From assembly GCA_947632635.1 (NCBI GenBank), contig CANRQA010000001.1, positions 44,809 through 108,808 on the forward strand: a stretch of 64,000 nucleotides of DNA. Direction: 5' to 3'. Shown one piece after another: positions 10,111 to 63,115 of this stretch (position 1 is its first letter; each line of letters opens with the position of its first letter). The notes beneath the pieces are model-generated. The model did no database searches, was not told the DNA's origin, and saw only the letters and a program-made list of their open reading frames with translations. A program made the translations under genes and the position numbers. Origin of the DNA: an uncultured Clostridia bacterium. GTDB lineage: Bacteria; Bacillota; Clostridia; TANB77; CAG-465.

Positions 10111-10791
10111 TTTTAGACCTTTTTATTAAAAGGAAGAAAATAAAAAAGTAAATTCTATTTTTTTAAATTTGCTTTTTTTGTTTATTTATGTTATAATAAA
10201 ATGGATGTGGCGCAGTATTCTAGTCAAAAAACCATATGCAAAGGTGGGCCTAAAAATCCATCACAGGACATATCGTTGAAACTTTGTGTATTTGCTTTTA
10301 TCGCCCAGATGAGGGCTTTTACATGATGAAAGAAATTAAGGTGCAGTTGCAATGGCATGTAGTGTAGTGCCTTTTTTTCGGGAGGCATCATAGTATAATA
10401 TAATATAATATTGTATGATGAAAACCTAATATTAGAGAGTACTAATATTAGTCGTAGTCTGTCGTGAGTGAAAGTAGCGAATAAGACGTTAAGTATATAT
10501 ATTTTTATTTGGCCAAATAATATATATACTTGTTTTTGAAATTACTATTGCAAAAGCGAATAAGCATATGGCAAGATTTGTTTGGGAAAGCCTCTAGACT
10601 GTTGTTAATCAGATGTATTGGGGATTATAGTGTGGACTAAGTGGTAATCAAGTCACTTTAAAGTTATCTATTTTAAAAGGAAACTGCCACAAGGTAACAA
10701 GTGGTAATAGATAGGGAAAACCTACTTGACCTAAGCCGCAAAATTTACTTAATACATTGCCAACATCTACTATATAAAGGAGTAAATAAAA

Positions 10792-11421
10792 TTGGAACAT
10801 AATGGCAGTAATGATTATCACTCGAAAGAGGAAAAAACGGGGATAGAAAAAGTTGAACAAAAAGAAAGAAATGCAAGTAAAAAGCAAAAACAACAAAAGA
10901 AGAACAAATGGGTATATATTATATTCATAATAACATTTATCTTATCGCTTATCTTTGGCATAATATCCAATGTTTTAATTGTAAAGATTAATATATTTAT
11001 TGCAGTTATAATACTTGTAATAATAGTGCTAATAGGTATTTTATTTGATATGATAGGTATGTCAGTAGTAAGTTGCAATGTTGCAACTTTTCATTCAATG
11101 GCCTCAAAAAAAAGGAAGGGAGCAAAAGAAGCTATTAGATTATCTAAATATTCAGACAAAGTATCTAGTGTTTGTAATGATGTAATAGGAGATGTGTGCG
11201 GTGTAATATCTGGTGCGGTTAGCGCGATGCTTGCTACACGATTTGCACAAACTTTCTCACTTAATGCTATTGCCACAAGTTTATTGCTTGGAGCTTTAGT
11301 TGCATCGTTTACTGTGTTTGGTAAGGCAATAGGAAAAACAATATCTGCAAGAAATGCTGATAAAATAATCTATAGTGTTGGGAAAATTATGAATATTTTT
11401 CTACCAGTAAAAAATAAATAA
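10792..11421 (+). CDS. hypothetical membrane protein, weakly resembling a CNNM/DUF21-type transmembrane domain without CBS domains
   Basis: 209-aa ORF, RBS AAAGGAG, Lys-rich N-terminus then hydrophobic helices; family assignment tentative. Confidence 0.4.
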   Translation: MEHNGSNDYHSKEEKTGIEKVEQKERNASKKQKQQKKNKWVYIIFIITFILSLIFGIISNVLIVKINIFIAVIILVIIVLIGILFDMIGMSVVSCNVATFHSMASKKRKGAKEAIRLSKYSDKVSSVCNDVIGDVCGVISGAVSAMLATRFAQTFSLNAIATSLLLGALVASFTVFGKAIGKTISARNADKIIYSVGKIMNIFLPVKNK

Positions 11422-21889: not shown

Positions 21890-24001
21890 ATGTATAAAAA
21901 ATTTGAAATGGAATATGCAGGACGTCCACTTGTTATAGAAACAGGAAAAATGGCAGGTCTTGCAAATGGCTCATGTCTAGTTAGGTATGGTGAAACAGCT
22001 GTACTTGTAAATGTAACAATGTCAAAAGAGCCAAAAGACGGTATAGACTTTTTACCACTTTCAGTTGATTATGAAGAAAGGTTATATTCAGTTGGAAAAA
22101 TACCTGGAGGATATATTAAAAGAGAAGGGAAGCCTTCTAATAAAGCAATACTTGTGTCACGTGTTATAGATAGACCTATAAGACCACTATTTCCAAAAGA
22201 TTATAGAAATGATACATCAATAAATGCGTTAGTACTTGCAGTAGAGCCAGATGTATTACCTGAAGTACCAGCTTCAATTGGAGCTTCAATTGCTTTAAAT
22301 ATATCTGATATACCTTTTGATGCTTTAGTTGGCTCTATAAAAGTTGGAATAGTAGATGATGAAATCATCTTAAACCCTAACTTAGAACAAAGAGAAAAAT
22401 CAACATTAGATTTAAGTGTATCTGCAACACCAGACAAAATATGTATGATAGAAGCAGGTGCAAAAGAAGTACCAGATGAAAAAATGTTAGAAGCAATTAA
22501 AGTAGCACATACTGAAATAAAGAAATTATGTGACTTTATAAAAGAAATAAGAAATGAAGTAGGAAAGAAAAAAGCAGAATATAAATCATTTGCAGTTCCT
22601 GAAGATTTAGTAGAATTTGTAGATAAATTAGCACATGATAAAATGAAAGAAGCAGTTATTGCAAAAGATAAAACAATAAGAGATGACGCTGTAGCTGCAG
22701 TAGATGAATTTGTAAAAGAAAAATACATAGAAGAATATGGACAAGAAAAATACGAAGAAAATAAATCAATGATTTCAGAAGCATTATATAAAGCAGAGAA
22801 AAAAGCAGTTAGAAATTATATTTTAGAAGAATCAAAAAGAGTTGACGGTAGAGGACTTGATGAAATAAGACCATTAAGTGCTGAAGTAGGTCTTTTTGAA
22901 AGAGTACATGGTAGTGCATTATTTACACGTGGACAAACTCAAGTATTATCAATGGTAACTTTAGGCTCTATATCAGATGAACAAGAATTAGATGGACTTG
23001 ATGAAGAAGTATCAAAAAGATATATACATCATTATAACTTTCCACCATATAGTGTAGGAGAGGCAAGAGCTTCACGTGGACCTGGACGTAGAGAAATAGG
23101 ACATGGTGCACTTGCAGAAAGAGCATTAGAGCCAGTAATACCATCACAAGAAGAATTCCCATACACAATTAGAGTAGTATCTGAGGTATTAAGTTCAAAT
23201 GGTTCAACTTCACAAGGTAGTGTTTGTGGCTCTACACTTGCATTAATGGATGCTGGTGTTCCAATAAAAGCTCCAGTTGCAGGTATATCAACAGGACTAT
23301 TTACAAAAGATGGTGATACATCTAACTATATAATGGTAACAGATATACAAGGAATTGAAGATTTCTTTGGAGATATGGATTTCAAAGTTGCAGGAACTAA
23401 AAAAGGAATAACAGCAATTCAAGTTGACATTAAAATTGATGGGCTTACATATGAAATAATAGAAGAAGCCTTTGCAAGAACAAATAAAGCAAGAAAATAT
23501 ATACTTGATGAAGTAATGTTAAAAGCAATAGATAAGCCAAGAGAAAAAATATCAAAATATGCACCAAAAATAGAAACACTAAAAATTAATCCTGATAGAA
23601 TTAGAGATGTAATAGGTAGTGGTGGAAAGACTATAAACAAAATAATTGAAGAAACTGGTGTAAAAATTGATATAGAAGATGATGGAACAGTATTTGTAGC
23701 AGGTATTGACCCTCAAAAAATGGATAAGGCAATAGAAATGATAGAAAACCTAACTAAAGATGTTGAATTAAATGCAGTATATATGGGTAAAGTAACAAAA
23801 ATACTACAATTTGGAGCATTAGTTGAAATATTACCTGGAAAAGAAGGACTTTTACATATTTCACAAATATCTACAAAAAGAATTAAAAAAGTAGAAGATG
23901 TATTAAATGTAGGAGATGACATATTAGTAAAAGTAACTGAAATAGGAAAAGAAGATGGCAAATTTAGTTTAACTGCAAAAGGTTTAATGGAAGAAGTATA
24001 G
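21890..24001 (+). CDS. pnp: polynucleotide phosphorylase
   Basis: two RNase PH domains, FTRGQTQ, KH and S1 domains at the C-terminus; RBS AAAGGAGG. Confidence 0.95.
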   Translation: MYKKFEMEYAGRPLVIETGKMAGLANGSCLVRYGETAVLVNVTMSKEPKDGIDFLPLSVDYEERLYSVGKIPGGYIKREGKPSNKAILVSRVIDRPIRPLFPKDYRNDTSINALVLAVEPDVLPEVPASIGASIALNISDIPFDALVGSIKVGIVDDEIILNPNLEQREKSTLDLSVSATPDKICMIEAGAKEVPDEKMLEAIKVAHTEIKKLCDFIKEIRNEVGKKKAEYKSFAVPEDLVEFVDKLAHDKMKEAVIAKDKTIRDDAVAAVDEFVKEKYIEEYGQEKYEENKSMISEALYKAEKKAVRNYILEESKRVDGRGLDEIRPLSAEVGLFERVHGSALFTRGQTQVLSMVTLGSISDEQELDGLDEEVSKRYIHHYNFPPYSVGEARASRGPGRREIGHGALAERALEPVIPSQEEFPYTIRVVSEVLSSNGSTSQGSVCGSTLALMDAGVPIKAPVAGISTGLFTKDGDTSNYIMVTDIQGIEDFFGDMDFKVAGTKKGITAIQVDIKIDGLTYEIIEEAFARTNKARKYILDEVMLKAIDKPREKISKYAPKIETLKINPDRIRDVIGSGGKTINKIIEETGVKIDIEDDGTVFVAGIDPQKMDKAIEMIENLTKDVELNAVYMGKVTKILQFGALVEILPGKEGLLHISQISTKRIKKVEDVLNVGDDILVKVTEIGKEDGKFSLTAKGLMEEV

Positions 24002-28096: not shown

Positions 28097-28159
28097 TTCA
28101 TAAACTAACTTTGAGATTCATATATAGATAAATATAATTAATTATTATAGGTGATATAT

Positions 28160-29068
28160 ATGAATACTCTTTTTATAAATTTATATGAGGATACTATAAA
28201 AAAAGAAGAAGTAAAGAAAAATAAAAATATTATTAAAAAAAATTTAGATAGAACTAAGATCATCTTAAGTAGTTGCTTAAATAAAATAACAGGGTTTAGC
28301 TTTTTAAAAGATGCATTTTCAACATCTAAAAATACAAGTACATATTTTTTAAATATATATAAAGATATATTCTTTGACTCAACAAAAAATCTATTTTTAT
28401 TAAAAAAATTAATAAAATTTAAGATAAATAATGGTCATAAGTTAAATATAGTTTTTAGCAAAAATTTTGATGATAATATAGACTTAAAATTACAAATACA
28501 AGAAACTCTAAATGATGCTTTAAAGGATGTAGAAAAAAATTATATATCTTTAAAAAATAATATGAAAAATTTAGATATGAAATATATAACTCATTATATA
28601 GAAAGTAGAAAAATAGATTTAAGAAAATTTAAAATATTAATTGCTATTGAAAAGTATGAAGATTTAGATGTAAATAAATTAATTGAATATTTAGATAAAT
28701 ATAGATATATTGATATTTTAAAATTTCCTAATATGACAAAATCTGATTATTCAAAAGTAAATAGTATAATAACTAAATTAAATGATGAATATGGCTCTAG
28801 TATGGAAGTTATCCAAAAAAGAAATATAATCGACTATAATTTTTATTTAATATATTCAAAAAATAAAAAAGAATTTTTTACTTCTCATTATGTTATAAAT
28901 AATAATGCAGGTATACTTGATTTAACTTCAAAAGATGATGATATCTTTAGTAATGAATATAAATCATATTTTAAAAATAAATATTATATATCCACAGTTT
29001 TTAATAGAGTAAAATTTGATATTGAAAACTTTAGTAAAAAAGAATTAGGAATTATTTACAAAAATTAA
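28160..29068 (+). CDS. hypothetical Lys/Asn/Ile-rich soluble protein
   Basis: ORF in the position normally held by cdaR but no YbbR-like features and no TM helix; composition extremely AT-biased. Confidence 0.4.
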   Translation: MNTLFINLYEDTIKKEEVKKNKNIIKKNLDRTKIILSSCLNKITGFSFLKDAFSTSKNTSTYFLNIYKDIFFDSTKNLFLLKKLIKFKINNGHKLNIVFSKNFDDNIDLKLQIQETLNDALKDVEKNYISLKNNMKNLDMKYITHYIESRKIDLRKFKILIAIEKYEDLDVNKLIEYLDKYRYIDILKFPNMTKSDYSKVNSIITKLNDEYGSSMEVIQKRNIIDYNFYLIYSKNKKEFFTSHYVINNNAGILDLTSKDDDIFSNEYKSYFKNKYYISTVFNRVKFDIENFSKKELGIIYKN

Positions 29069-31182: not shown

Positions 31183-31343
31183 TATAATAAAAAAGATAAT
31201 AGCTTAAGTTTTTAAGTTATTATTTTTTTTGTTACTTTTTCAAACTACTTTAGTAAAATAAATTGACATAATGTAAAAAATAATGTATAATATTATTTAG
31301 CAAAAAAATAACAACATAAATAATTTTGTTTTGGAGGTAATTT

Positions 31344-31685
31344 ATGCTAATTAGTGTATCTTCATGTTTAGGAATTGCAATAGGTCTTTTATTTAAAATA
31401 AATGAACCTTTCTTTTTACATGTTATTTCTATACTTAATCTTTTAATGATTATTTTAAGTTTCCTTGCACTTTTTAATAGTAAAAATAAAGTTTTTTATT
31501 TTATTTTAGTAATAATTGCATCATTGATTTTTGGAGTAGGTATTACTATATGCGATTTATGTATAATAGGGAGTATGCCAAAAGATGTATATATGTGTGA
31601 TGGTATAATTTGGAGTTTTGTGGGCTTTCTAAATTCATCAATATATTATTCAATACTTAATAGGCTTGAAAGTGTAAAAGAATAA
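31344..31685 (+). CDS. small membrane protein (3-4 TM)
   Basis: 113-aa ORF, RBS GGAGGT. Confidence 0.4.
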   Translation: MLISVSSCLGIAIGLLFKINEPFFLHVISILNLLMIILSFLALFNSKNKVFYFILVIIASLIFGVGITICDLCIIGSMPKDVYMCDGIIWSFVGFLNSSIYYSILNRLESVKE

Positions 31686-31709
31686 TGGGGTAAAGGAGAG
31701 TAGAAAATA

Positions 31710-31919
31710 ATGGGATTTTTTGCAAACTGGTTATGGGTAGTTATAATGGTACTTATTATAACTGTTATAGTTAACGTTATTTTTAAGATATTAAACCTTT
31801 TAAATGTAATTAGTTATAAACGGTATAAGAGGCTTCTTAAATTATCTACTAAACTACTTGTACTTGTTTTAATATTTTTTGCTTTTTACATATATATAGT
31901 ATCATTAAAAAATATATAA
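31710..31919 (+). CDS. small two-TM membrane protein
   Basis: 69-aa ORF, RBS AAAGGAGAG. Confidence 0.35.
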   Translation: MGFFANWLWVVIMVLIITVIVNVIFKILNLLNVISYKRYKRLLKLSTKLLVLVLIFFAFYIYIVSLKNI

Positions 31920-52233: not shown

Positions 52234-54048
52234 TTAATCACCAATTTTTCCGATAAGCTTTGCCTTTTCTTCATCCGAAAGAGAGTTCCATACATTTTCA
52301 CTTTCTTCAGGGTTAACTGCAGTTACATTATTGTTTTCCTCATTAATGATGTTATATTTTTCCATTTCTTCGTTTATTTTTTCTTGTGCCGCGCTTATTT
52401 CTTGAGAAAAAGCAATATTATCGAAAGAAACTATATTTATAACACCATTTGATTCATCAATATATGAAACTTCAACAGTATCACCCGCACGTGTAATTGG
52501 AAGCTCATTAGATACCGTGTAAGGTGCAAGGTAGAGTTTACTTGGGTCATCATTTAGTATGATATAATAATATGTGTTACCGTCCTCAACGTTTTGAGTA
52601 ATTCTTGTTACAGTGCCTCTTTCAGTATATGCATAAGCCTCTTGCCCTAAATCTATGGAAATATTTTTAGTATTCATCGCATTAAGATATGCTCTTTTCG
52701 TTGCTTGAATAGTTTTACCATTACCAACAACATCGTAGTTTTCAATATTTACCATAGCATATGATTTTATAAGGCCCTCTTGATCCTTAAGAGGCATAAA
52801 GTAGGTAGGAATACCAGAAACGTTAAGAGGAATAGGAACACTTGGAGTATATTTCATATCTTGAACTCCACCAGTCGAACTTCCCATTGCGGCTTGTTCT
52901 GTTGCACCTATCATACGATAGAATATAGCCTCTTTTGTACGTGTATCAATCATGAAAAATCCAACAGTACCCTCGTCTTTACCAACAGAGCTCATACCAG
53001 TAAAATAATAACACTTACCTTCATTATATACTGTGGTAATATGTTCTGTTACAGACAGCATATTTTTCTTAGAGAAGTTTATAAACCCTTCTACATACCT
53101 ACCATAGTTTTCAAGCTGTTTTTTTACAAAACTTTCAGGTTGAACAATGTCTATCCAGCTAGGAGCTTCATCAACTGAATACCAGTTACACTTGCCATTT
53201 ATAGCATTACAGGTAATGACACCAGTAGTTTCAGGACTTCCCCAAAGAGTAACATTTTTAAATGTAGGAACTATCCAATACGGTGTGCCTTCATCGTCGA
53301 TCTCAAATACATAGTCAGTATCAGCAAGTCCTATAGTTCTGTAACCTGAGGCTCGAATATGACGCTTTAAATCACTACCAAAATATGCAGAGGGCAAATA
53401 CTTAAGATACAACTTTTCACCATTTAGTTCTTTTACGAAAGTAACATCATTAGTGTTAGTTGCACTAACCATTAAGTATCCTGCTGTACCTGCTTTGTTT
53501 GAAAACCATTTAGTAAGTCCACGATGCTCAAGCGGTGCAACATAAAGAAGTTTTCCATTTACACTTTGCTTGTTTGTAAAATTACCAACTTCCTGTTGTG
53601 AGCCAAGAGCAACTTCTTCACCCATTTTTTTATCTGCAAGTTTATTTGCAAGCTCTGTATCAACGATAGGTATTTGAGAGTTATCAATTTGAAGCATATC
53701 TTCTACAAAAGACTTTTCTTCAACTTCTCCAATTTGGTTATATCTAGTATTTGCATTAAATATTGGAGAGCCGATAAAGCTAATTATTACATAAAGTATG
53801 AATAAAATTGCAGATGCGACTCCTGAAATAATGGAAAGCAACCCAAGTAACTCTTCATCATCAGAAGTAATGGGATTTGGAATCCACATAAATAGGATAA
53901 TTGCAAGTATAGCAGCTCCTATTCCAAAAAATAGTGCTCCAGTTACATATGCAATTGAAAGAGGTGGAAGCCATAATTCATAAATTACCCAATATTCAAA
54001 GATGAGTAAAAGTGTAAGAATTCCTTTGGTGAGTTTTGATACATACAT
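52234..54048 (-). CDS. hypothetical membrane protein: three N-terminal TM helices plus large extracytoplasmic domain
   Basis: 604-aa ORF, RBS AGGAGG; no recognisable motif. Confidence 0.5.
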   Translation of the reverse strand: MYVSKLTKGILTLLLIFEYWVIYELWLPPLSIAYVTGALFFGIGAAILAIILFMWIPNPITSDDEELLGLLSIISGVASAILFILYVIISFIGSPIFNANTRYNQIGEVEEKSFVEDMLQIDNSQIPIVDTELANKLADKKMGEEVALGSQQEVGNFTNKQSVNGKLLYVAPLEHRGLTKWFSNKAGTAGYLMVSATNTNDVTFVKELNGEKLYLKYLPSAYFGSDLKRHIRASGYRTIGLADTDYVFEIDDEGTPYWIVPTFKNVTLWGSPETTGVITCNAINGKCNWYSVDEAPSWIDIVQPESFVKKQLENYGRYVEGFINFSKKNMLSVTEHITTVYNEGKCYYFTGMSSVGKDEGTVGFFMIDTRTKEAIFYRMIGATEQAAMGSSTGGVQDMKYTPSVPIPLNVSGIPTYFMPLKDQEGLIKSYAMVNIENYDVVGNGKTIQATKRAYLNAMNTKNISIDLGQEAYAYTERGTVTRITQNVEDGNTYYYIILNDDPSKLYLAPYTVSNELPITRAGDTVEVSYIDESNGVINIVSFDNIAFSQEISAAQEKINEEMEKYNIINEENNNVTAVNPEESENVWNSLSDEEKAKLIGKIGD

Positions 54049-57555: not shown

Positions 57556-57705
57556 ATTATCACTCCTTTGTACAAGTTATATTTAAAGTATATGTTTCAT
57601 TTTTTATATTATTACAGTTAAGATTACAAGTATTGTATTTTTAAGTTTAATATGAGTATAATAAACTCTAAATTAAAAAAAGTTACATAAATTTTTTAAA
57701 AAGTG

Positions 57706-57734
57706 TTGACATAACATTGATAATGTGCTATAAT
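57706..57734 (+). promoter_or_regulatory. perfect-consensus sigma-A promoter (TTGACA-N17-TATAAT)
   Basis: TTGACA at 57706-57711, 17-nt spacer, TATAAT at 57729-57734; GGAGG RBS at 57779-57783, ATG at 57792. Confidence 0.7.
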
Positions 57735-57791
57735 AAATATTAGGTAATATCAATATATTTATTAAAATTTTAATATTTGGAGGTTAGTATT

Positions 57792-58679
57792 ATGAGCAAA
57801 AAGATGACAGAGGAAATGGCATGCAACATTACGGAGGCCCTTGGAAAGCTGCAAGTGTATAAGGAAGGATACGCTGCAGAACTCATCAAGCGGCTGGTAG
57901 TGACACCGGTAAATGCACTTCAACATTATCTTGGTCTTGGACCTGAGTATTTGCCCTATGTGGACATTATTCGCTCTAAGATCGAAGAGAAGTATAAGCA
58001 AACCGCAGGGCATGACCTGCTAAGTAACGTCGACGTAAACGCGTACCCCGAGGGGTTGCGTACGGCAGTAAACGACGATCCTGTGCTTTTGAAGCACATT
58101 GGCGATACGTTTAAATTCTTTATTGAACATAACAATAAGGAGATTATAACACGTGTTGCCGGCCTTATGTCCAGAACGGACAAAGAAAACATTTTCTGCG
58201 GAGGACTTAACGAGGCCGGATTCCACCATGCAGAGTGGAACTATCTTAAGAAGTTCCCTAAGGAACTCTATGAGTTCTTTACGGAAATGAACCAGAACAC
58301 AGCTGAAGAACAGCCGGAGCTGCCGATGACCGTAGACAAAGTCGAGCTTGTCAAGCGCTTTTACGAGCTTACGACTGCAAAAGATGCTTTTGACAAGGAA
58401 TCAACTGATGTCTATGCACGTCTTGAAAAAGACGGAGTTAGACCTGAAGAAATCCTTGCAAATCGCCATGCTATCGAAACCGCAAATCGCGTCGCCAAGA
58501 TGCGTATTATCCGCTCTGTCGAGATGTTCTTTGAACTTACTGACAGGGTACAGGCCACCTATAAAGAGCTTGAAAAGGTTACCGGCCAGCTTAAAGAAAG
58601 CGGTCTTGATCCGGAAAAGCTCCTTGAAGAGCGTGCATCACTGGAAACGGCAATGTCGCTTCTTGCACCGGCCTGCTGA
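57792..58679 (+). CDS. hypothetical acidic, probably all-helical 295-aa protein encoded by a GC-rich (about 46% GC) gene of apparent foreign origin
   Basis: codon usage (CTG, GCC, CCG, CGC frequent) unlike every neighbouring gene; consensus promoter plus GGAGG RBS 8 nt upstream; strong terminator downstream; no TM helix, no known motif recognised. Confidence 0.7.
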   Translation: MSKKMTEEMACNITEALGKLQVYKEGYAAELIKRLVVTPVNALQHYLGLGPEYLPYVDIIRSKIEEKYKQTAGHDLLSNVDVNAYPEGLRTAVNDDPVLLKHIGDTFKFFIEHNNKEIITRVAGLMSRTDKENIFCGGLNEAGFHHAEWNYLKKFPKELYEFFTEMNQNTAEEQPELPMTVDKVELVKRFYELTTAKDAFDKESTDVYARLEKDGVRPEEILANRHAIETANRVAKMRIIRSVEMFFELTDRVQATYKELEKVTGQLKESGLDPEKLLEERASLETAMSLLAPAC

Positions 58680-58693
58680 TTATTACATCAGCA

Positions 58694-58728
58694 AACAACA
58701 CCGAGAATTTTCTTGGTGTTGTTTTTTG
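58694..58728 (+). terminator. rho-independent terminator of the GC-rich gene
   Basis: AACAACACC...GGTGTTGTT stem followed by TTTTTT. Confidence 0.75.
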
Positions 58729-58838
58729 ATTTTTAATTTTTTTCTTTTGATTTTCATTTTTGTTTTTCTTTCTTTATTTTGTTCTTGAAAAATATCCCTA
58801 ACTATAATATAATATAATAAAAGAAAAGTGAGGAAAAC

Positions 58839-61111: not shown

Positions 61112-63115
61112 ATGGAAGAATTAATAGAAAGTATATGTGATTATGTAAGAAAACCATATACTGATTACGCTATTATGTTAAATGGTGAATGGGGAAGCGG
61201 AAAAACATATTTTTGGAATAATAAACTAAGAAGTAGGCTTGAGTCAATAAAAGTAAATGGCAAAAATTACAAAACTATATATATGTCATTATATGGTATA
61301 AATAGTTTAGAAGAAATAAGTAAGAAAATATTTATAGAAACTAACCCTACTATTAGCAAAACTTTAAAAAAATTTGTAGATACAAGACAAGGAAATTTAA
61401 TACCTGAATATGTTAAAACAGGTCTTGATATGGCAAACCTTTTTGGTAGTATTAACTTAAATCAAGAAAAAGTTGATTTTTCAAAATCTTTTGCTATAGA
61501 TGATAAAATTTTATGTTTTGATGACCTTGAAAGAGCGAATGTTGATGTAATAGATATTTTAGGATATATAAATAATTTTGTTGAACATGATGGTATAAAA
61601 ACTATACTTATTTGTAATGAAAAAGAACTTGCTACAAAATTTAAAAATAGCAATATGGAAATAAAGACTTTAATTGCTACATATATTTTAGATAAAGAGG
61701 GAAATTTAGTAGTAAAAGATAAAAAGCCAGATAAATTTCTTGGTGAAAAAGATAATAAAGAAGAAGTAAATAAACCTCTTGCTGACCTTATCGAAGATAA
61801 AATTACAGATATATTTGATAGAGCAAATGCTTATGAACGTATAAAAGAAAAATTAATTGGTGAAACTTTTGAATATGTTCCTGAATATCCATATATTTTA
61901 AATGGTATGGTTATGAAATATTCATATAATGAAGCATTAATTGACTTTTATAAAAGAAACTCATATATTATAATTGCAGCATTTAAAAAATCAGGAACTG
62001 GAAATTTAAGAATATTAAAACACGCATTAAATGATTTTGAAAAAATATTTACATATACTTTAAGAGATTATCCAAATATAAATTATGATATATTAAAAAC
62101 AATGCTAACATTTACTATTGCAATGTCATTTGAAATAAAAGCAGGAAATAAAGTAAAAGAAAAACTAAGACTTATAAAAGATAATGATGACTATAATTCA
62201 ATTATATTTACATCACAAATTTTAAATGATAATAATCAATTTTACTTAAGAGAGTTTGATAATAAATATTTCCTAAATGATAATTCTAAATATAAATTCT
62301 TTAAGTTTATAGAATTTTACGTTAGAACAAGAGTATTTGATGAAAAACTATTTAAAGAAGATATGGATAATGCAACAGCTTCATTTAAAGATGAAAAAGA
62401 AGTTAAAAGTAAAAATTACATAAAATTATTAAATGGTGATTATTGGAAACTATCTGATTTTGAATTTGATAGCTTATGGCAACAAGTATTAGAAGAAGTA
62501 AGAGTTGGTAAAGTAGAATTTGTTGAATATGTTAAATTGTTTGTTGTATTCAAATATTTAATAAATATTGGACTTGTTAAAGTATCTGTGAATGATTTAA
62601 AAATGTCTTTTCAATTTGGTATGCAGATTGCCGCATCTCAAAGCATGGAGAGCATAGCAGTTATTTCTCCTGATTATGATATGAATGTAGATTATGATAC
62701 TGAGGATAAAGATATTCAGGAAATAAAAGACAAATATGTTGAAATAAAACAAAAAGCAATTGCTGAGGCTGCTGCAAATAAGGCTGTTGAATTATTTAAA
62801 TTACTTCCAAGTAATATTGATGAATTCTATAAACAAATGATGAACGATTATGCTGATTTACCTGTATTTTCTAAATATGACATGGATGATTTATATGATA
62901 AACTTGAACTTACACAAAATTATGAGTTGTATAATCTAATAAATCTACTTAAAGTTAGATATAAAGATAAAGATGAGTTATTAATGGAGGATATTAGAAA
63001 TTTAAGAAAATTAGTAGATATTATAAAGAAAAATAAAGCACAAAAGGAAAGGACAATAAAACAAGCTCTATTTGATAATTTGGCAAAAGTAATTGAAAAT
63101 TTGGATAAGAAATAA
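61112..63115 (+). CDS. KAP-family P-loop NTPase
   Basis: Walker A with the KAP-typical Trp (LNGEWGSGKTYFW), Walker B ILCFDDLER, long helical C-terminal region; own promoter TTGAAA-N17-TAGAAT (61054-61082), RBS AGAGGTGAAAA. Confidence 0.7.
   Translation: MEELIESICDYVRKPYTDYAIMLNGEWGSGKTYFWNNKLRSRLESIKVNGKNYKTIYMSLYGINSLEEISKKIFIETNPTISKTLKKFVDTRQGNLIPEYVKTGLDMANLFGSINLNQEKVDFSKSFAIDDKILCFDDLERANVDVIDILGYINNFVEHDGIKTILICNEKELATKFKNSNMEIKTLIATYILDKEGNLVVKDKKPDKFLGEKDNKEEVNKPLADLIEDKITDIFDRANAYERIKEKLIGETFEYVPEYPYILNGMVMKYSYNEALIDFYKRNSYIIIAAFKKSGTGNLRILKHALNDFEKIFTYTLRDYPNINYDILKTMLTFTIAMSFEIKAGNKVKEKLRLIKDNDDYNSIIFTSQILNDNNQFYLREFDNKYFLNDNSKYKFFKFIEFYVRTRVFDEKLFKEDMDNATASFKDEKEVKSKNYIKLLNGDYWKLSDFEFDSLWQQVLEEVRVGKVEFVEYVKLFVVFKYLINIGLVKVSVNDLKMSFQFGMQIAASQSMESIAVISPDYDMNVDYDTEDKDIQEIKDKYVEIKQKAIAEAAANKAVELFKLLPSNIDEFYKQMMNDYADLPVFSKYDMDDLYDKLELTQNYELYNLINLLKVRYKDKDELLMEDIRNLRKLVDIIKKNKAQKERTIKQALFDNLAKVIENLDKK

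What the first reader, a model, noticed from the sequence alone, without database searches (positions are those of the whole stretch)
57700..58730. Single GC-rich foreign ORF with a textbook promoter, RBS and terminator inserted between the Ca-ATPase gene and recD2
The 888-bp ORF at 57792-58679 is about 46% GC with GC-ending codons, whereas every flanking gene is 25-30% GC, and the compositional boundary is sharp at both ends. It has a perfect TTGACA-N17-TATAAT promoter, a GGAGG RBS with 8-nt spacing and a strong intrinsic terminator, so it is a self-contained, probably highly expressed unit. The protein is acidic, predicted helical, has no TM segment and matches no family I recognise. One conserved-looking patch is GGLNEAGFHHAEWNYLKKF. 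Such a compositionally alien, self-contained single gene is how recently acquired anti-defence, toxin or regulatory genes often appear. It sits directly upstream of recD2 and the KAP NTPase. No flanking direct repeats or recombinase are visible, so the acquisition mechanism is unclear.
Basis: seen in the sequence. Interest (0 to 1): 0.8.

Follow-up and report, generated by a model that had tools for sequence, protein, structure and literature searches.

The report
GC-rich orphan gene kept by selection
The GC-rich gene is real and stands alone, but it belongs to a small, fast-evolving, uncharacterised protein family of very AT-rich gut Clostridia whose members are all GC-rich, so its odd composition is an inherited, maintained trait, not a sign of recent foreign origin.

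Summary
ORF 57792-58679 (295 aa) has GC 0.466 and GC3 0.50, against a mean GC3 of 0.136 (max 0.23) in 49 window genes (z = 10.7). It has a 12/12 extended -10 promoter, a GGAGG RBS 8 nt upstream and a 14-bp terminator.

The "recently acquired foreign gene" reading is not supported. No homologue was found in phages, plasmids, viral contigs or any GC-richer genome. The only relatives are about 10 B-type genes and 22+ clusters of a paralogue "A" that shares the N-terminal domain. All 16 A or B genes whose DNA I examined lie in 25-32% GC Clostridia contigs and are GC3-enriched (0.26-0.54, neighbours 0.08-0.27).

In one clade the locus Peptidase_M14 > A > B > < thrS is positionally conserved. The flanks are 80-97% identical and A/B only 31-68%. 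B has dS 0.90 against 0.09 for thrS, with dN/dS about 0.24. Neutral decay should have erased the GC3 excess, so something maintains it.

The mRNAs fold more stably than shuffled versions (moderate evidence). The AF2 model (pLDDT 84.5) is an all-alpha two-domain protein with no informative fold or family match. The cellular function is unknown. My best guess is a very stable, abundantly expressed mRNA encoding a rapidly evolving cytoplasmic scaffold protein.

The parts
57706..57734 (+). Sigma-A type promoter: -35 TTGACA (57706-57711), 17-nt spacer, TG extension, -10 TATAAT (57729-57734). The 'TTGACATAA' form is shared by the family.
   Evidence: 12/12 matches, TG present. The same TTGACATAA-N14-TATAAT form precedes the homologues in L008, L009, L011, L019, L020 and L021. 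It is also a generic strong promoter in these genomes: it occurs at window 31263, and before an unrelated permease in L002.
57741..57791 (+). Inferred AT-rich 5' leader of about 50 nt. The transcription start is inferred from the position of the -10 box and was not measured.
   Evidence: Sequence. Leaders of about 40-65 nt are seen in the homologues.
57779..57783 (+). Shine-Dalgarno GGAGG, 8 nt before the ATG
   Evidence: An AGGAGG or GGAGG-like sequence sits at the same place in six of the seven other homologue loci whose upstream region is informative; L019 has the weaker AAGGAGT.
57792..58679 (+). Protein-coding sequence, 295 aa, GC 0.466, GC3 0.50. It is a B-type member of a new all-alpha protein family.
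   Evidence: Coding status is supported by the GC1 > GC3 > GC2 pattern, by full-length protein homology to P0002 (E = 3e-23), and by dN/dS of 0.18-0.31 in five of six orthologue comparisons, the sixth being a near-identical pair with too few changes.
57792..58307 (+). N-terminal helical domain (residues 1-172, ten helices), shared with the 'A' paralogue subfamily
   Evidence: AF2 model with pLDDT mostly 77-94. A-versus-B hhalign gives 95.3% probability and E = 2.4e-8 over 160 columns. Alignment A4.
58185..58256 (+). Most conserved family motif, ENIFCGGLNEAGFHHAEWNYLKKF (residues 132-155). It contains the invariant G138 and F144.
58308..58337 (+). Acidic, disordered linker (residues 173-182). 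It is long and variable in the other subfamily.
   Evidence: pLDDT below 50 for residues 172-180. Alignments.
58338..58676 (+). C-terminal domain: two copies of a roughly 49-aa helix-turn-helix hairpin unit (...LEKDGVRPEEILANRHAIETA / ...LKESGLDPEKLLEERASLETA)
58693..58734 (+). Intrinsic terminator: 14-bp stem, 4-nt loop, T run
   Evidence: I3. Homologues have equally strong terminators, and those of the thrS-linked subfamily differ by changes on both sides of the stem (GAGG..CCTC, GCGG..CCGC, GATGG..CCATC).

Best explanation
The ORF is a genuine, autonomously transcribed protein-coding gene. It belongs to a previously undescribed, rapidly diverging family of cytoplasmic, mildly acidic, all-alpha two-domain proteins (B type, with a paralogous A type). 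The family has been found only in very low-GC gut Clostridia.

Its GC-rich coding sequence is not a footprint of recent import. It is a family trait that persists inside 25-32% GC genomes against their strong AT mutation pressure, so it must be actively maintained at synonymous sites.

The mechanism I think most likely is inferred, not shown. A consensus extended -10 promoter, a strong SD, a GC-rich and highly base-paired coding region and a strong 3' hairpin would together make an unusually long-lived, RNase-resistant, abundant mRNA. That mRNA would yield a large amount of a helical scaffold or binding protein, whose rapid and mosaic sequence turnover suggests involvement in some antagonistic or partner-coevolving interaction.

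Layered confidence:
- Real coding gene of a new family: about 0.9.
- Composition is a maintained family trait, not a recent HGT signature: about 0.75.
- Maintenance acts through mRNA stability or structure: about 0.35.
- Any specific cellular role: below 0.15.
For: Shown:
1. GC3 of 0.50 is confined to the CDS.
2. The only homologues among 5.8 billion clusters and 1.84 billion representatives are P0002-P0008, further B genes in L012, L022 and L024, and 22 clusters of A paralogues.
3. All 16 A or B genes whose DNA I examined are GC3-enriched (0.26-0.54) in contigs whose other genes have GC3 of 0.08-0.27.
4. The enrichment spans the whole CDS.
5. The codon shift is the same in all members: away from A-ending codons, e.g. 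TTA 53% to 0-9%, ATA 54% to 7-12%, AAA 87% to 32-54%.
6. The locus Peptidase_M14 > A > B > < thrS is conserved: all four genes are seen together in L022 and L023, and parts of it in L008, L009, L012, L020, L021 and L024. Flanks are 72-97% identical (80-97% for the longer comparisons) and A/B 31-68%.
7. B has dN/dS of 0.18-0.31, so it is under purifying selection. Its dS is 0.90 where adjacent thrS has 0.09, and 2.4 where thrS has 0.81.
8. A two-rate amelioration model predicts GC3 falling from 0.5 to about 0.18 at a per-lineage dS of 0.4. The observed values are 0.28-0.54.
9. Promoter, leader, SD and terminator are conserved family-wide, with terminator changes on both sides of the stem.
10. 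Family CDSs fold about twice as stably per nucleotide as host genes (-0.25 to -0.32 against about -0.16 to -0.21 kcal/mol/nt).
11. They also fold more stably than synonymous-codon shuffles: mean z = -4.55 for n = 8, against -0.66 for 34 window genes (Mann-Whitney p = 2.5e-5).
12. The AF2 model has pLDDT 84.5 and is all-alpha.
Against: - With shuffles that preserve regional composition (25-codon blocks), the structure excess shrinks. The mean z is -2.7 for B and -2.6 for A, against -1.5 for eight controls drawn mostly from the most structured genes. L021 B is only -0.4. Part of the signal is therefore GC patchiness.
- GC-rich codons are rare in these hosts, which would slow translation and argues against simple optimisation for yield.
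- No expression data exist.
- For the window gene itself there is no positional orthologue. Its nearest relative is 28% identical, so a recent relocation within the clade cannot be dated.
- The mosaic divergence shows recombination at the locus, which also fits a GC-biased gene-conversion explanation.
- Function is not constrained by any fold or family match.
Confidence: 0.5

Rival explanations
1. Recent horizontal acquisition. The cassette came from a mid-GC (about 42-50%) Clostridia-like donor or its mobile element and has not yet ameliorated. It would be an anti-defence, toxin or regulatory moron-like gene.
For: - Sharp composition change.
- The codon usage resembles that of mid-GC Clostridia (CTT, AAG, CCG, GGA, GCA). 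The resemblance itself rests on my own knowledge of such genomes.
- It has its own promoter and terminator.
- It is absent upstream of recD2 in seven relatives.
- B-type genes sit at four different chromosomal positions in different lineages.
Against: - No homologue in any GC-richer context, phage, plasmid or viral contig, despite exhaustive searches.
- Every relative is in a low-GC host and equally anomalous.
- Positional orthologues retain high GC3 beyond the expected amelioration time.
- No repeats, integrase or att-like ends.
- Allele exchange at the thrS locus needs flank homology, which only related low-GC genomes have (inference).
Confidence: 0.13
2. Recombination hot spot with GC-biased gene conversion. 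The locus is under diversifying selection, divergent alleles are repeatedly imported from related lineages, and biased repair of heteroduplex raises GC3 as a by-product. Under this view mRNA structure is incidental.
For: - Divergence is mosaic. Between L008 and L023 the A gene and the first ~245 codons of B are 40-85% nt-identical, while the last third of B, the terminator and thrS are 88-100% identical.
- dS is ten times that of the neighbouring gene.
- A link between recombination and GC3 in bacteria has been reported (Lassalle et al. 2015, PMC4450053, listed; I did not read it in detail).
Against: - The size of the effect (GC3 0.13 to 0.3-0.54) is far larger than I would expect from bacterial gBGC (own knowledge).
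- GC3 is also high (0.34-0.37) in the recently homogenised, conserved 3' third.
- The enrichment stops exactly at the start and stop codons, whereas conversion tracts should spill into the promoter and terminator.
- Promoters are more conserved (83-93%) than the CDS.
- The family shows excess folding over codon shuffles.
Confidence: 0.2
3. Rare-codon gating. The GC-ending codons, rare in the host, throttle or time translation through the availability of particular tRNAs, as TTA and bldA do in Streptomyces. A strongly transcribed message would then be translated only in a particular state such as sporulation or stress.
For: Strong use of codons that make up 1-5% of their families in host genes: CCG 45%, ACG 37%, CGC 36%, CTG 16%, GTC 32%. 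The hosts are spore-formers (spoVT in the window; SpoVA in L021).
Against: - The shift is global across all codon families and not concentrated in one codon.
- No dedicated tRNA gene lies nearby: the window holds only two tRNA-Met genes.
- The idea does not explain the excess folding.
- There is no direct evidence.
Confidence: 0.07
4. The transcript is primarily a large structured or dual-function RNA (GC-rich islands in AT-rich genomes are often ncRNAs, like the OLE RNA in this same window), and the ORF is secondary.
For: - The full transcript folds at z = -9.8 against dinucleotide shuffles, and the CDS alone at z = -4.9.
- It is the strongest GC island in the 64-kb window.
- It has a strong promoter and terminator, as stable RNAs do.
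Against: - No Rfam match even at E <= 1.
- An ORF of 271-354 codons is preserved in all homologues, with significant protein-level similarity, dN/dS of about 0.2 and a strong SD.
- The structure excess is modest under the block-wise control.
- The nucleotide sequence is not conserved where the protein diverges.
Confidence: 0.05

Closest known systems
Phage 'morons' and single-gene genomic islets (autonomous promoter-gene-terminator units with atypical composition; Hendrix/Juhala concept, cited from my own knowledge)
   Same: A monocistronic cassette with its own strong promoter and terminator. Its composition differs sharply from the flanks. It sits between unrelated genes, and different lineages carry it at different loci.
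   Different: It is not in a prophage or any mobile element, and no donor is known. The anomaly is shared by all family members and retained by positional orthologues, so it is not a transfer scar.
Hypervariable chromosomal loci with atypical GC flanked by conserved genes, such as O-antigen or capsule loci (own knowledge)
   Same: Conserved flanks (Peptidase_M14 and thrS at 80-97% identity) bracket genes that are 31-68% identical. Divergence is mosaic, indicating allele exchange, and the composition is persistently atypical.
   Different: These are one or two cytoplasmic helical proteins, not surface-polysaccharide enzymes. The composition deviates upward in GC and only within the CDS.
Long-lived, abundantly expressed Firmicute mRNAs stabilised by 5' and 3' elements, such as Bacillus thuringiensis cry genes with STAB-SD and a 3' retroregulator hairpin (own knowledge)
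   Same: A strong promoter, a leader with a strong SD and a large 3' hairpin. The predicted folding is very stable.
   Different: Here stabilisation would come from the coding region's composition and structure. No half-life or abundance data exist, and the protein is unrelated.
GC-rich structured ncRNA islands of AT-rich Firmicutes, such as the OLE RNA present at 10191-10779 in this window
   Same: A GC peak within an AT-rich genome, an independent transcription unit and strong predicted structure.
   Different: It is clearly protein-coding and has no Rfam match.
Armadillo/HEAT-like alpha-solenoid scaffolds
   Same: The N-domain is all-alpha. It gives a weak profile hit to designed armadillo repeat proteins over the LLSS-x-EN..GG region (E = 0.013-0.019).

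Membership tests
Recently acquired horizontal-transfer islet / moron | Own promoter and terminator | tested here: met
   12/12 promoter at 57706-57734 and terminator at 58693-58724.
Recently acquired horizontal-transfer islet / moron | Composition deviates from the host | tested here: met
   GC3 of 0.50 against 0.136 +/- 0.034, z = 10.7.
Recently acquired horizontal-transfer islet / moron | Homologues in a donor lineage or mobile element of matching composition | tested here: not met
   None in phage or plasmid records, viral contigs, metagenome contigs or 1.84 billion representatives. All relatives lie in 25-32% GC contigs.
Recently acquired horizontal-transfer islet / moron | The anomaly is transient: orthologues long resident in the host have ameliorated | tested here: not met
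   thrS-linked positional orthologues keep GC3 of 0.28-0.54 at thrS dS of up to 0.8. The model predicts about 0.18.
Recently acquired horizontal-transfer islet / moron | Presence/absence polymorphism at the same site among close relatives, or integration scars | tested here: inconclusive
   It is absent near recD2 in L001-L007, but these are distant (RecD2 52-65% identical) and the synteny upstream of recD2 is not conserved. No flanking repeats or recombinase.
Structured non-coding RNA (Rfam families; OLE-like large RNAs) | Match to a covariance model, or no conserved reading frame | tested here: not met
   No Rfam hit at E <= 1. The ORF is conserved with dN/dS of about 0.2 and protein-level homology at E = 3e-23.
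Structured non-coding RNA (Rfam families; OLE-like large RNAs) | Folding energy well beyond the composition-matched expectation | tested here: inconclusive
   z = -4.9 with global shuffles and -3.4 with block-wise shuffles for the window ORF. The family mean is -4.55, or -2.7 block-wise, against controls at -0.66 and -1.5.
Translationally optimised highly expressed host gene | Codon usage matches that of the host's highly expressed genes | tested here: not met
   All other window genes have GC3 of 0.07-0.23, including a 703-aa ORF at 21890-24001 that I take to be an EF-G-like translation factor on size and position alone (not checked against a family library; GC3 0.09). The ORF uses codons that are 1-5% of their families in the host.
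Diversity-generating retroelement target | Nearby reverse transcriptase and a template repeat matching a variable region | tested here: not met
   No repeat of any part of the ORF elsewhere in the window. No RT-like ORF among the neighbours.
Known anti-phage defence, anti-defence or toxin families | Significant match to PADLOC, Pfam, NCBIfam or PHROG models | tested here: not met
   Only sub-threshold noise, e.g. Ppl at 16.8 bits against a cut-off of 1000.
New B/A helical protein family defined here | N-terminal ~170-aa helical domain with the EN-x-F-x-GG-[LI]-x-x-L-G-F ... YLK motif and Y68, L89, F144 | tested here: met
   Alignments A1, A2 and A4. phmmer gives E = 3e-23 to P0002. A-versus-B hhalign gives 95.3% probability.
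New B/A helical protein family defined here | CDS-limited GC3 enrichment in a low-GC host, with a consensus promoter, strong SD and hairpin terminator | tested here: met

The most novel reading that the evidence does not exclude
A clade-specific pair of hyper-evolving cytoplasmic proteins (A and B) whose coding sequences are kept GC-rich and highly base-paired by selection on the mRNA itself. One possibility is that the message survives when AU-rich host transcripts are being degraded, for example by an AU-directed endoribonuclease during phage attack, toxin activation or sporulation. The protein would then be made exactly when the rest of the transcriptome is shut off. This would be a natural case of composition-encoded mRNA privilege. 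It would also be a clear counter-example to the rule that atypical GC content means horizontal transfer.
Probability: 0.15. Interest if true: 0.8.

Novelty: new variant of a known kind. Interest (0 to 1): 0.55.

Why it matters
Atypical base composition is routinely taken as proof of horizontal transfer. Here a gene family keeps GC3 of 0.3-0.5 inside genomes whose other genes sit near 0.13, at a conserved chromosomal position, while its protein sequence turns over several times faster than its neighbours.

If the composition is maintained by selection on the mRNA, this is a compact natural system for measuring how coding-region GC content and structure set mRNA lifetime and yield in an extremely AT-rich bacterium. 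If it is maintained by biased gene conversion, it is an unusually strong bacterial example of that process.

Either way, it defines an uncharacterised protein family without a recognisable fold that is probably abundant in a poorly studied group of human and animal gut Clostridia. It also cautions against island-calling by composition alone.

Tried and rejected
- **Family and fold searches on the ORF and all family members.** Pfam, NCBIfam, PHROGs and PADLOC gave nothing above threshold.
- **PDB sequence-profile searches.** Only weak hits, to RPB5 and to designed armadillo repeats.
- **Nucleotide and protein searches of phage and plasmid collections.** No match.
- **Collection scans.** Alignment A2 was too divergent to scan with. 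The single-protein and subfamily scans of viral and metagenome contigs gave one extra locus, L012.
- **Exact-sequence look-up of the window protein.** No contig on record.
- **Flanking repeats, att sites and a template repeat.** None found.
- **Rfam at permissive threshold.** Nothing.
- **The conserved TTGACATAA promoter as a family-specific regulatory signature.** Rejected, because the same form precedes unrelated genes.
- **Assembly chimera or engineered insert.** Rejected, because independent assemblies show the same CDS-limited pattern in divergent homologues.
- **Transcription-associated mutational bias.** Unlikely, because the third-position bases are strand-symmetric (G .26, C .24, A .23, T .27).
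- **tRNA genes near the locus, as a hint of codon gating.** Only two tRNA-Met genes.
- **Literature searches for a described phenomenon of this kind.** Nothing specific.
Full report
**1. Checking the observation**

The ORF runs from ATG 57792 to TGA 58679 and encodes 295 aa. Its GC is 0.466 and its GC3 is 0.497. The 49 other genes of the window have mean GC3 of 0.136 (sd 0.034, max 0.226), which puts the ORF at z = 10.7.

The shift begins at the first codons and ends at the stop codon. The upstream intergenic stretch is 16.9% GC and the downstream one 22.0%. The expression signals are as described:
- TTGACA-17-TATAAT with a TG extension at 57706-57734
- GGAGG 8 nt before the ATG
- a 14-bp terminator at 58693-58724

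recD2 has its own promoter-like site downstream of that terminator (58785-58813).

The protein has pI 5.3, no hydrophobic segment and an all-helical prediction. The neighbours are a P-type cation ATPase, RecD2/YrrC, a KAP NTPase and SpoVT.

**2. Is it coding, and does it have relatives?**

No match reached a curated cut-off in Pfam or NCBIfam, and PHROGs, PADLOC and Rfam gave nothing significant. In the 5.8-billion-cluster database the protein matches only itself. An exhaustive phmmer scan of 1.84 billion representatives found five distant relatives. The best is P0002, which has the same length, 28% identity over the full length and E = 3e-23.

Profile searches and context look-ups added P0007, P0008 and further genes in L012, L022 and L024.

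A second subfamily, "A" (about 366 aa, 22 or more clusters, all unnamed and without Pfam domains), shares the N-terminal domain. The hhalign comparison gives 95.3% probability and E = 2.4e-8.

Orthologue comparisons give dN/dS of 0.18-0.31 in five of six pairs. The sixth, the near-identical pair L009/L012, gives 0.49 from very few changes. Together with the GC1 > GC3 > GC2 pattern, this shows a real protein-coding gene under purifying selection.

**3. The composition anomaly is a family trait**

All 16 A or B genes whose DNA I examined lie in contigs of 25-32% GC and form the GC peak of their contig.

| Genes | GC3 |
|---|---|
| Window ORF | 0.50 |
| L013 | 0.52 |
| L024 | 0.54 |
| L021 | 0.45 |
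| L020 | 0.44 |
| L008 | 0.39 |
| L011 | 0.39 |
| L009 | 0.37 |
| L012 | 0.36 |
| L023 | 0.36 |
| L019 | 0.30 |
| L022 | 0.28 |
| A-type genes | 0.26-0.39 |
| Neighbouring genes | 0.08-0.27 |

The codon shift has the same direction in every member. It is a general move away from A-ending codons, not merely a preference for C in NNY codons. The enrichment covers the whole CDS.

**4. It is not explained by recent transfer**

No homologue occurs in phage or plasmid records, at either DNA or protein level. None occurs in viral contigs.

In one host clade the order Peptidase_M14 > A > B > < thrS is conserved. All four genes are seen together in L022 and L023, and parts of the order in L008, L009, L012, L020, L021 and L024. 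There are local variations: a transposase sits where the peptidase gene lies in L008, and a glycoamylase gene is inserted between A and B in L009 and L023.

The flanking proteins are 72-97% identical (80-97% for the longer comparisons), while A and B are 31-68% identical. Between L008 and L009, thrS has dS of 0.09, whereas B has dS of 0.90 and dN of 0.22. Between L008 and L021, thrS has dS of 0.81 and B about 2.4.

With an equilibrium GC3 of 0.12, a simple two-rate model predicts that GC3 would fall from 0.5 to about 0.18 after a per-lineage dS of 0.4. The observed values remain at 0.28-0.54.

Allele exchange at this locus needs homology in the flanks, which only related low-GC genomes provide (inference). 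The GC-rich state is therefore carried and maintained within the low-GC clade.

For the window gene itself no positional orthologue is available. recD2-KAP-spoVT is conserved in five of the seven relatives (RecD2 52-65% identical) and recD2-KAP in a sixth, L004. The region upstream of recD2 is not syntenic, and none of the seven carries a homologue within the flanks examined. B-type genes occupy at least four different positions in different lineages. The cassette does relocate over evolutionary time, but no mobility signature is visible.

**5. The transcription unit**

Most homologues have the following:
- a TTGACATAA-N14-TATAAT or near-identical promoter, weaker in L013
- a 40-65-nt AT-rich leader
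- an AGGAGG-type SD
- a strong hairpin terminator, except the first cassette of L011

The terminators of the thrS-linked subfamily differ by changes on both sides of the stem. L011 carries two tandem cassettes, each with its own promoter. The promoter form itself is not family-specific, because it also precedes unrelated genes.

**6. mRNA structure**

The full transcript folds at -318.5 kcal/mol, which is z = -9.8 against dinucleotide shuffles. That shuffle mixes the AT-rich leader with the GC-rich CDS and includes the terminator.

| Test | Family | Controls |
|---|---|---|
| Window CDS alone, dinucleotide or synonymous-codon shuffles | z = -4.9 | — |
| Eight B-type CDSs, synonymous-codon shuffles | mean z = -4.55 | 34 window genes: mean -0.66, one at -4.0 |
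| 25-codon block shuffles (regional composition preserved) | B -2.7 (n = 10), A -2.6 (n = 4) | -1.5 (n = 8, mostly the most structured genes) |

The first two rows come, where the Mann-Whitney test gives p = 2.5e-5. I therefore treat selection for extra structure as moderately supported.

What is certain is that the GC enrichment roughly doubles the predicted folding stability per nucleotide compared with host mRNAs.

**7. Divergence pattern**

The L008 and L023 alignments are mosaic:
- The A gene and the first ~245 codons of B are 40-85% nt-identical.
- The last third of B, the terminator and thrS are 88-100% identical.
- The promoters are 83-93% identical.

This shows recombination within the locus and CDS-focused turnover. 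It fits long-lived divergent alleles under diversifying selection, and it is the main support for the rival explanation of GC-biased gene conversion. Two things argue against that rival. The enrichment is limited to the CDS, and GC3 is still high (0.34-0.37) in the conserved 3' part.

**8. The protein**

With the eight-sequence alignment, AF2 gives pLDDT 84.5. The model has:
- a ten-helix N-domain (residues 1-172)
- a short acidic disordered linker
- two helical hairpins in the C-domain, which are an internal duplication of about 49 aa

**9. Interpretation**

My best-supported account is as follows. This is a resident, rapidly evolving orphan gene family of very low-GC gut Clostridia. Each member is an autonomous unit that is probably highly expressed. 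Its coding sequence is held GC-rich against mutation pressure, most plausibly for mRNA stability or structure.

The rivals are gBGC at a recombination hot spot, recent HGT, rare-codon gating and a dual-function RNA. Each is listed with its evidence and what would refute it.

The inference of recent foreign origin is not supported.

**10. Novelty and score**

The protein family has no detectable relation to described families. The maintained, CDS-limited GC enrichment at a conserved locus is unusual and instructive. However, function and mechanism are unproven, and orphan cassettes as such are common. I rate it a new variant of a known kind (an autonomous, compositionally atypical single-gene cassette or orphan family), with interest 0.55.

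Noticed in passing
window 10191-11421: A full-length OLE (ornate large extremophilic) RNA at 10191-10779 (+), 333 bits. A CNNM/DUF21-domain membrane protein gene follows immediately at 10792-11421, the position expected for oapA (the oapA identification is from my own knowledge).
   Followed up: partly
window 61112-63115; L001-L006: A 667-aa KAP-family P-loop NTPase lies between recD2 and spoVT. It follows recD2 in six related MAGs (53-70% identity), five of which also show spoVT after it, so it behaves as a clade core gene and not as a variable defence islet.
   Followed up: partly
window 52234-54048 (-): A 604-aa protein with N-terminal membrane segments and an acidic tail. It has no Pfam match and the highest GC of the ordinary genes (0.346, GC3 0.22).
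   Followed up: no
window 28151-29068 (+): The opposite compositional outlier: a 305-aa ORF with only 16.7% GC (GC1 0.23, GC2 0.18, GC3 0.10).
   Followed up: no
L011 1454-1626: A second tandem paralogue cassette with its own TTGACATAA promoter and SD, directly after the closest homologue of the window ORF. Its product begins MAKTMNEAMAVKVKGALSSVRFYAAS. The contig ends before the gene does.
   Followed up: partly
L008 56-1528; L009 438-1691; L023 1854-3098: Local rearrangements of the A-B-thrS locus. A UPF0236-family transposase sits in L008 where Peptidase_M14 lies in other lineages. A glycoamylase gene is inserted in antisense between A and B in L009 and L023.
   Followed up: partly
L020 188-298: The database start of P0006 is too far upstream. 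The annotated N-terminal 37 residues overlap the promoter (L020 231-259), and the real start is the MTTMNTQNN methionine at 299.
   Followed up: yes
L004 5353-5540: An extra fragment similar to the RecD2 C-terminus (residues 635-720) lies between recD2 and the KAP NTPase gene in one relative.
   Followed up: no
window 31263-31919: The only other perfect TTGACATAA-N14-TATAAT promoter in the window precedes two small hydrophobic ORFs of 113 and 69 aa with unknown function.
   Followed up: no
L021 923-1384: A 153-aa predicted membrane/coiled-coil protein just upstream of the A gene is also GC3-enriched (0.39). The compositional trait may therefore extend beyond the A/B family in some genomes.
   Followed up: no
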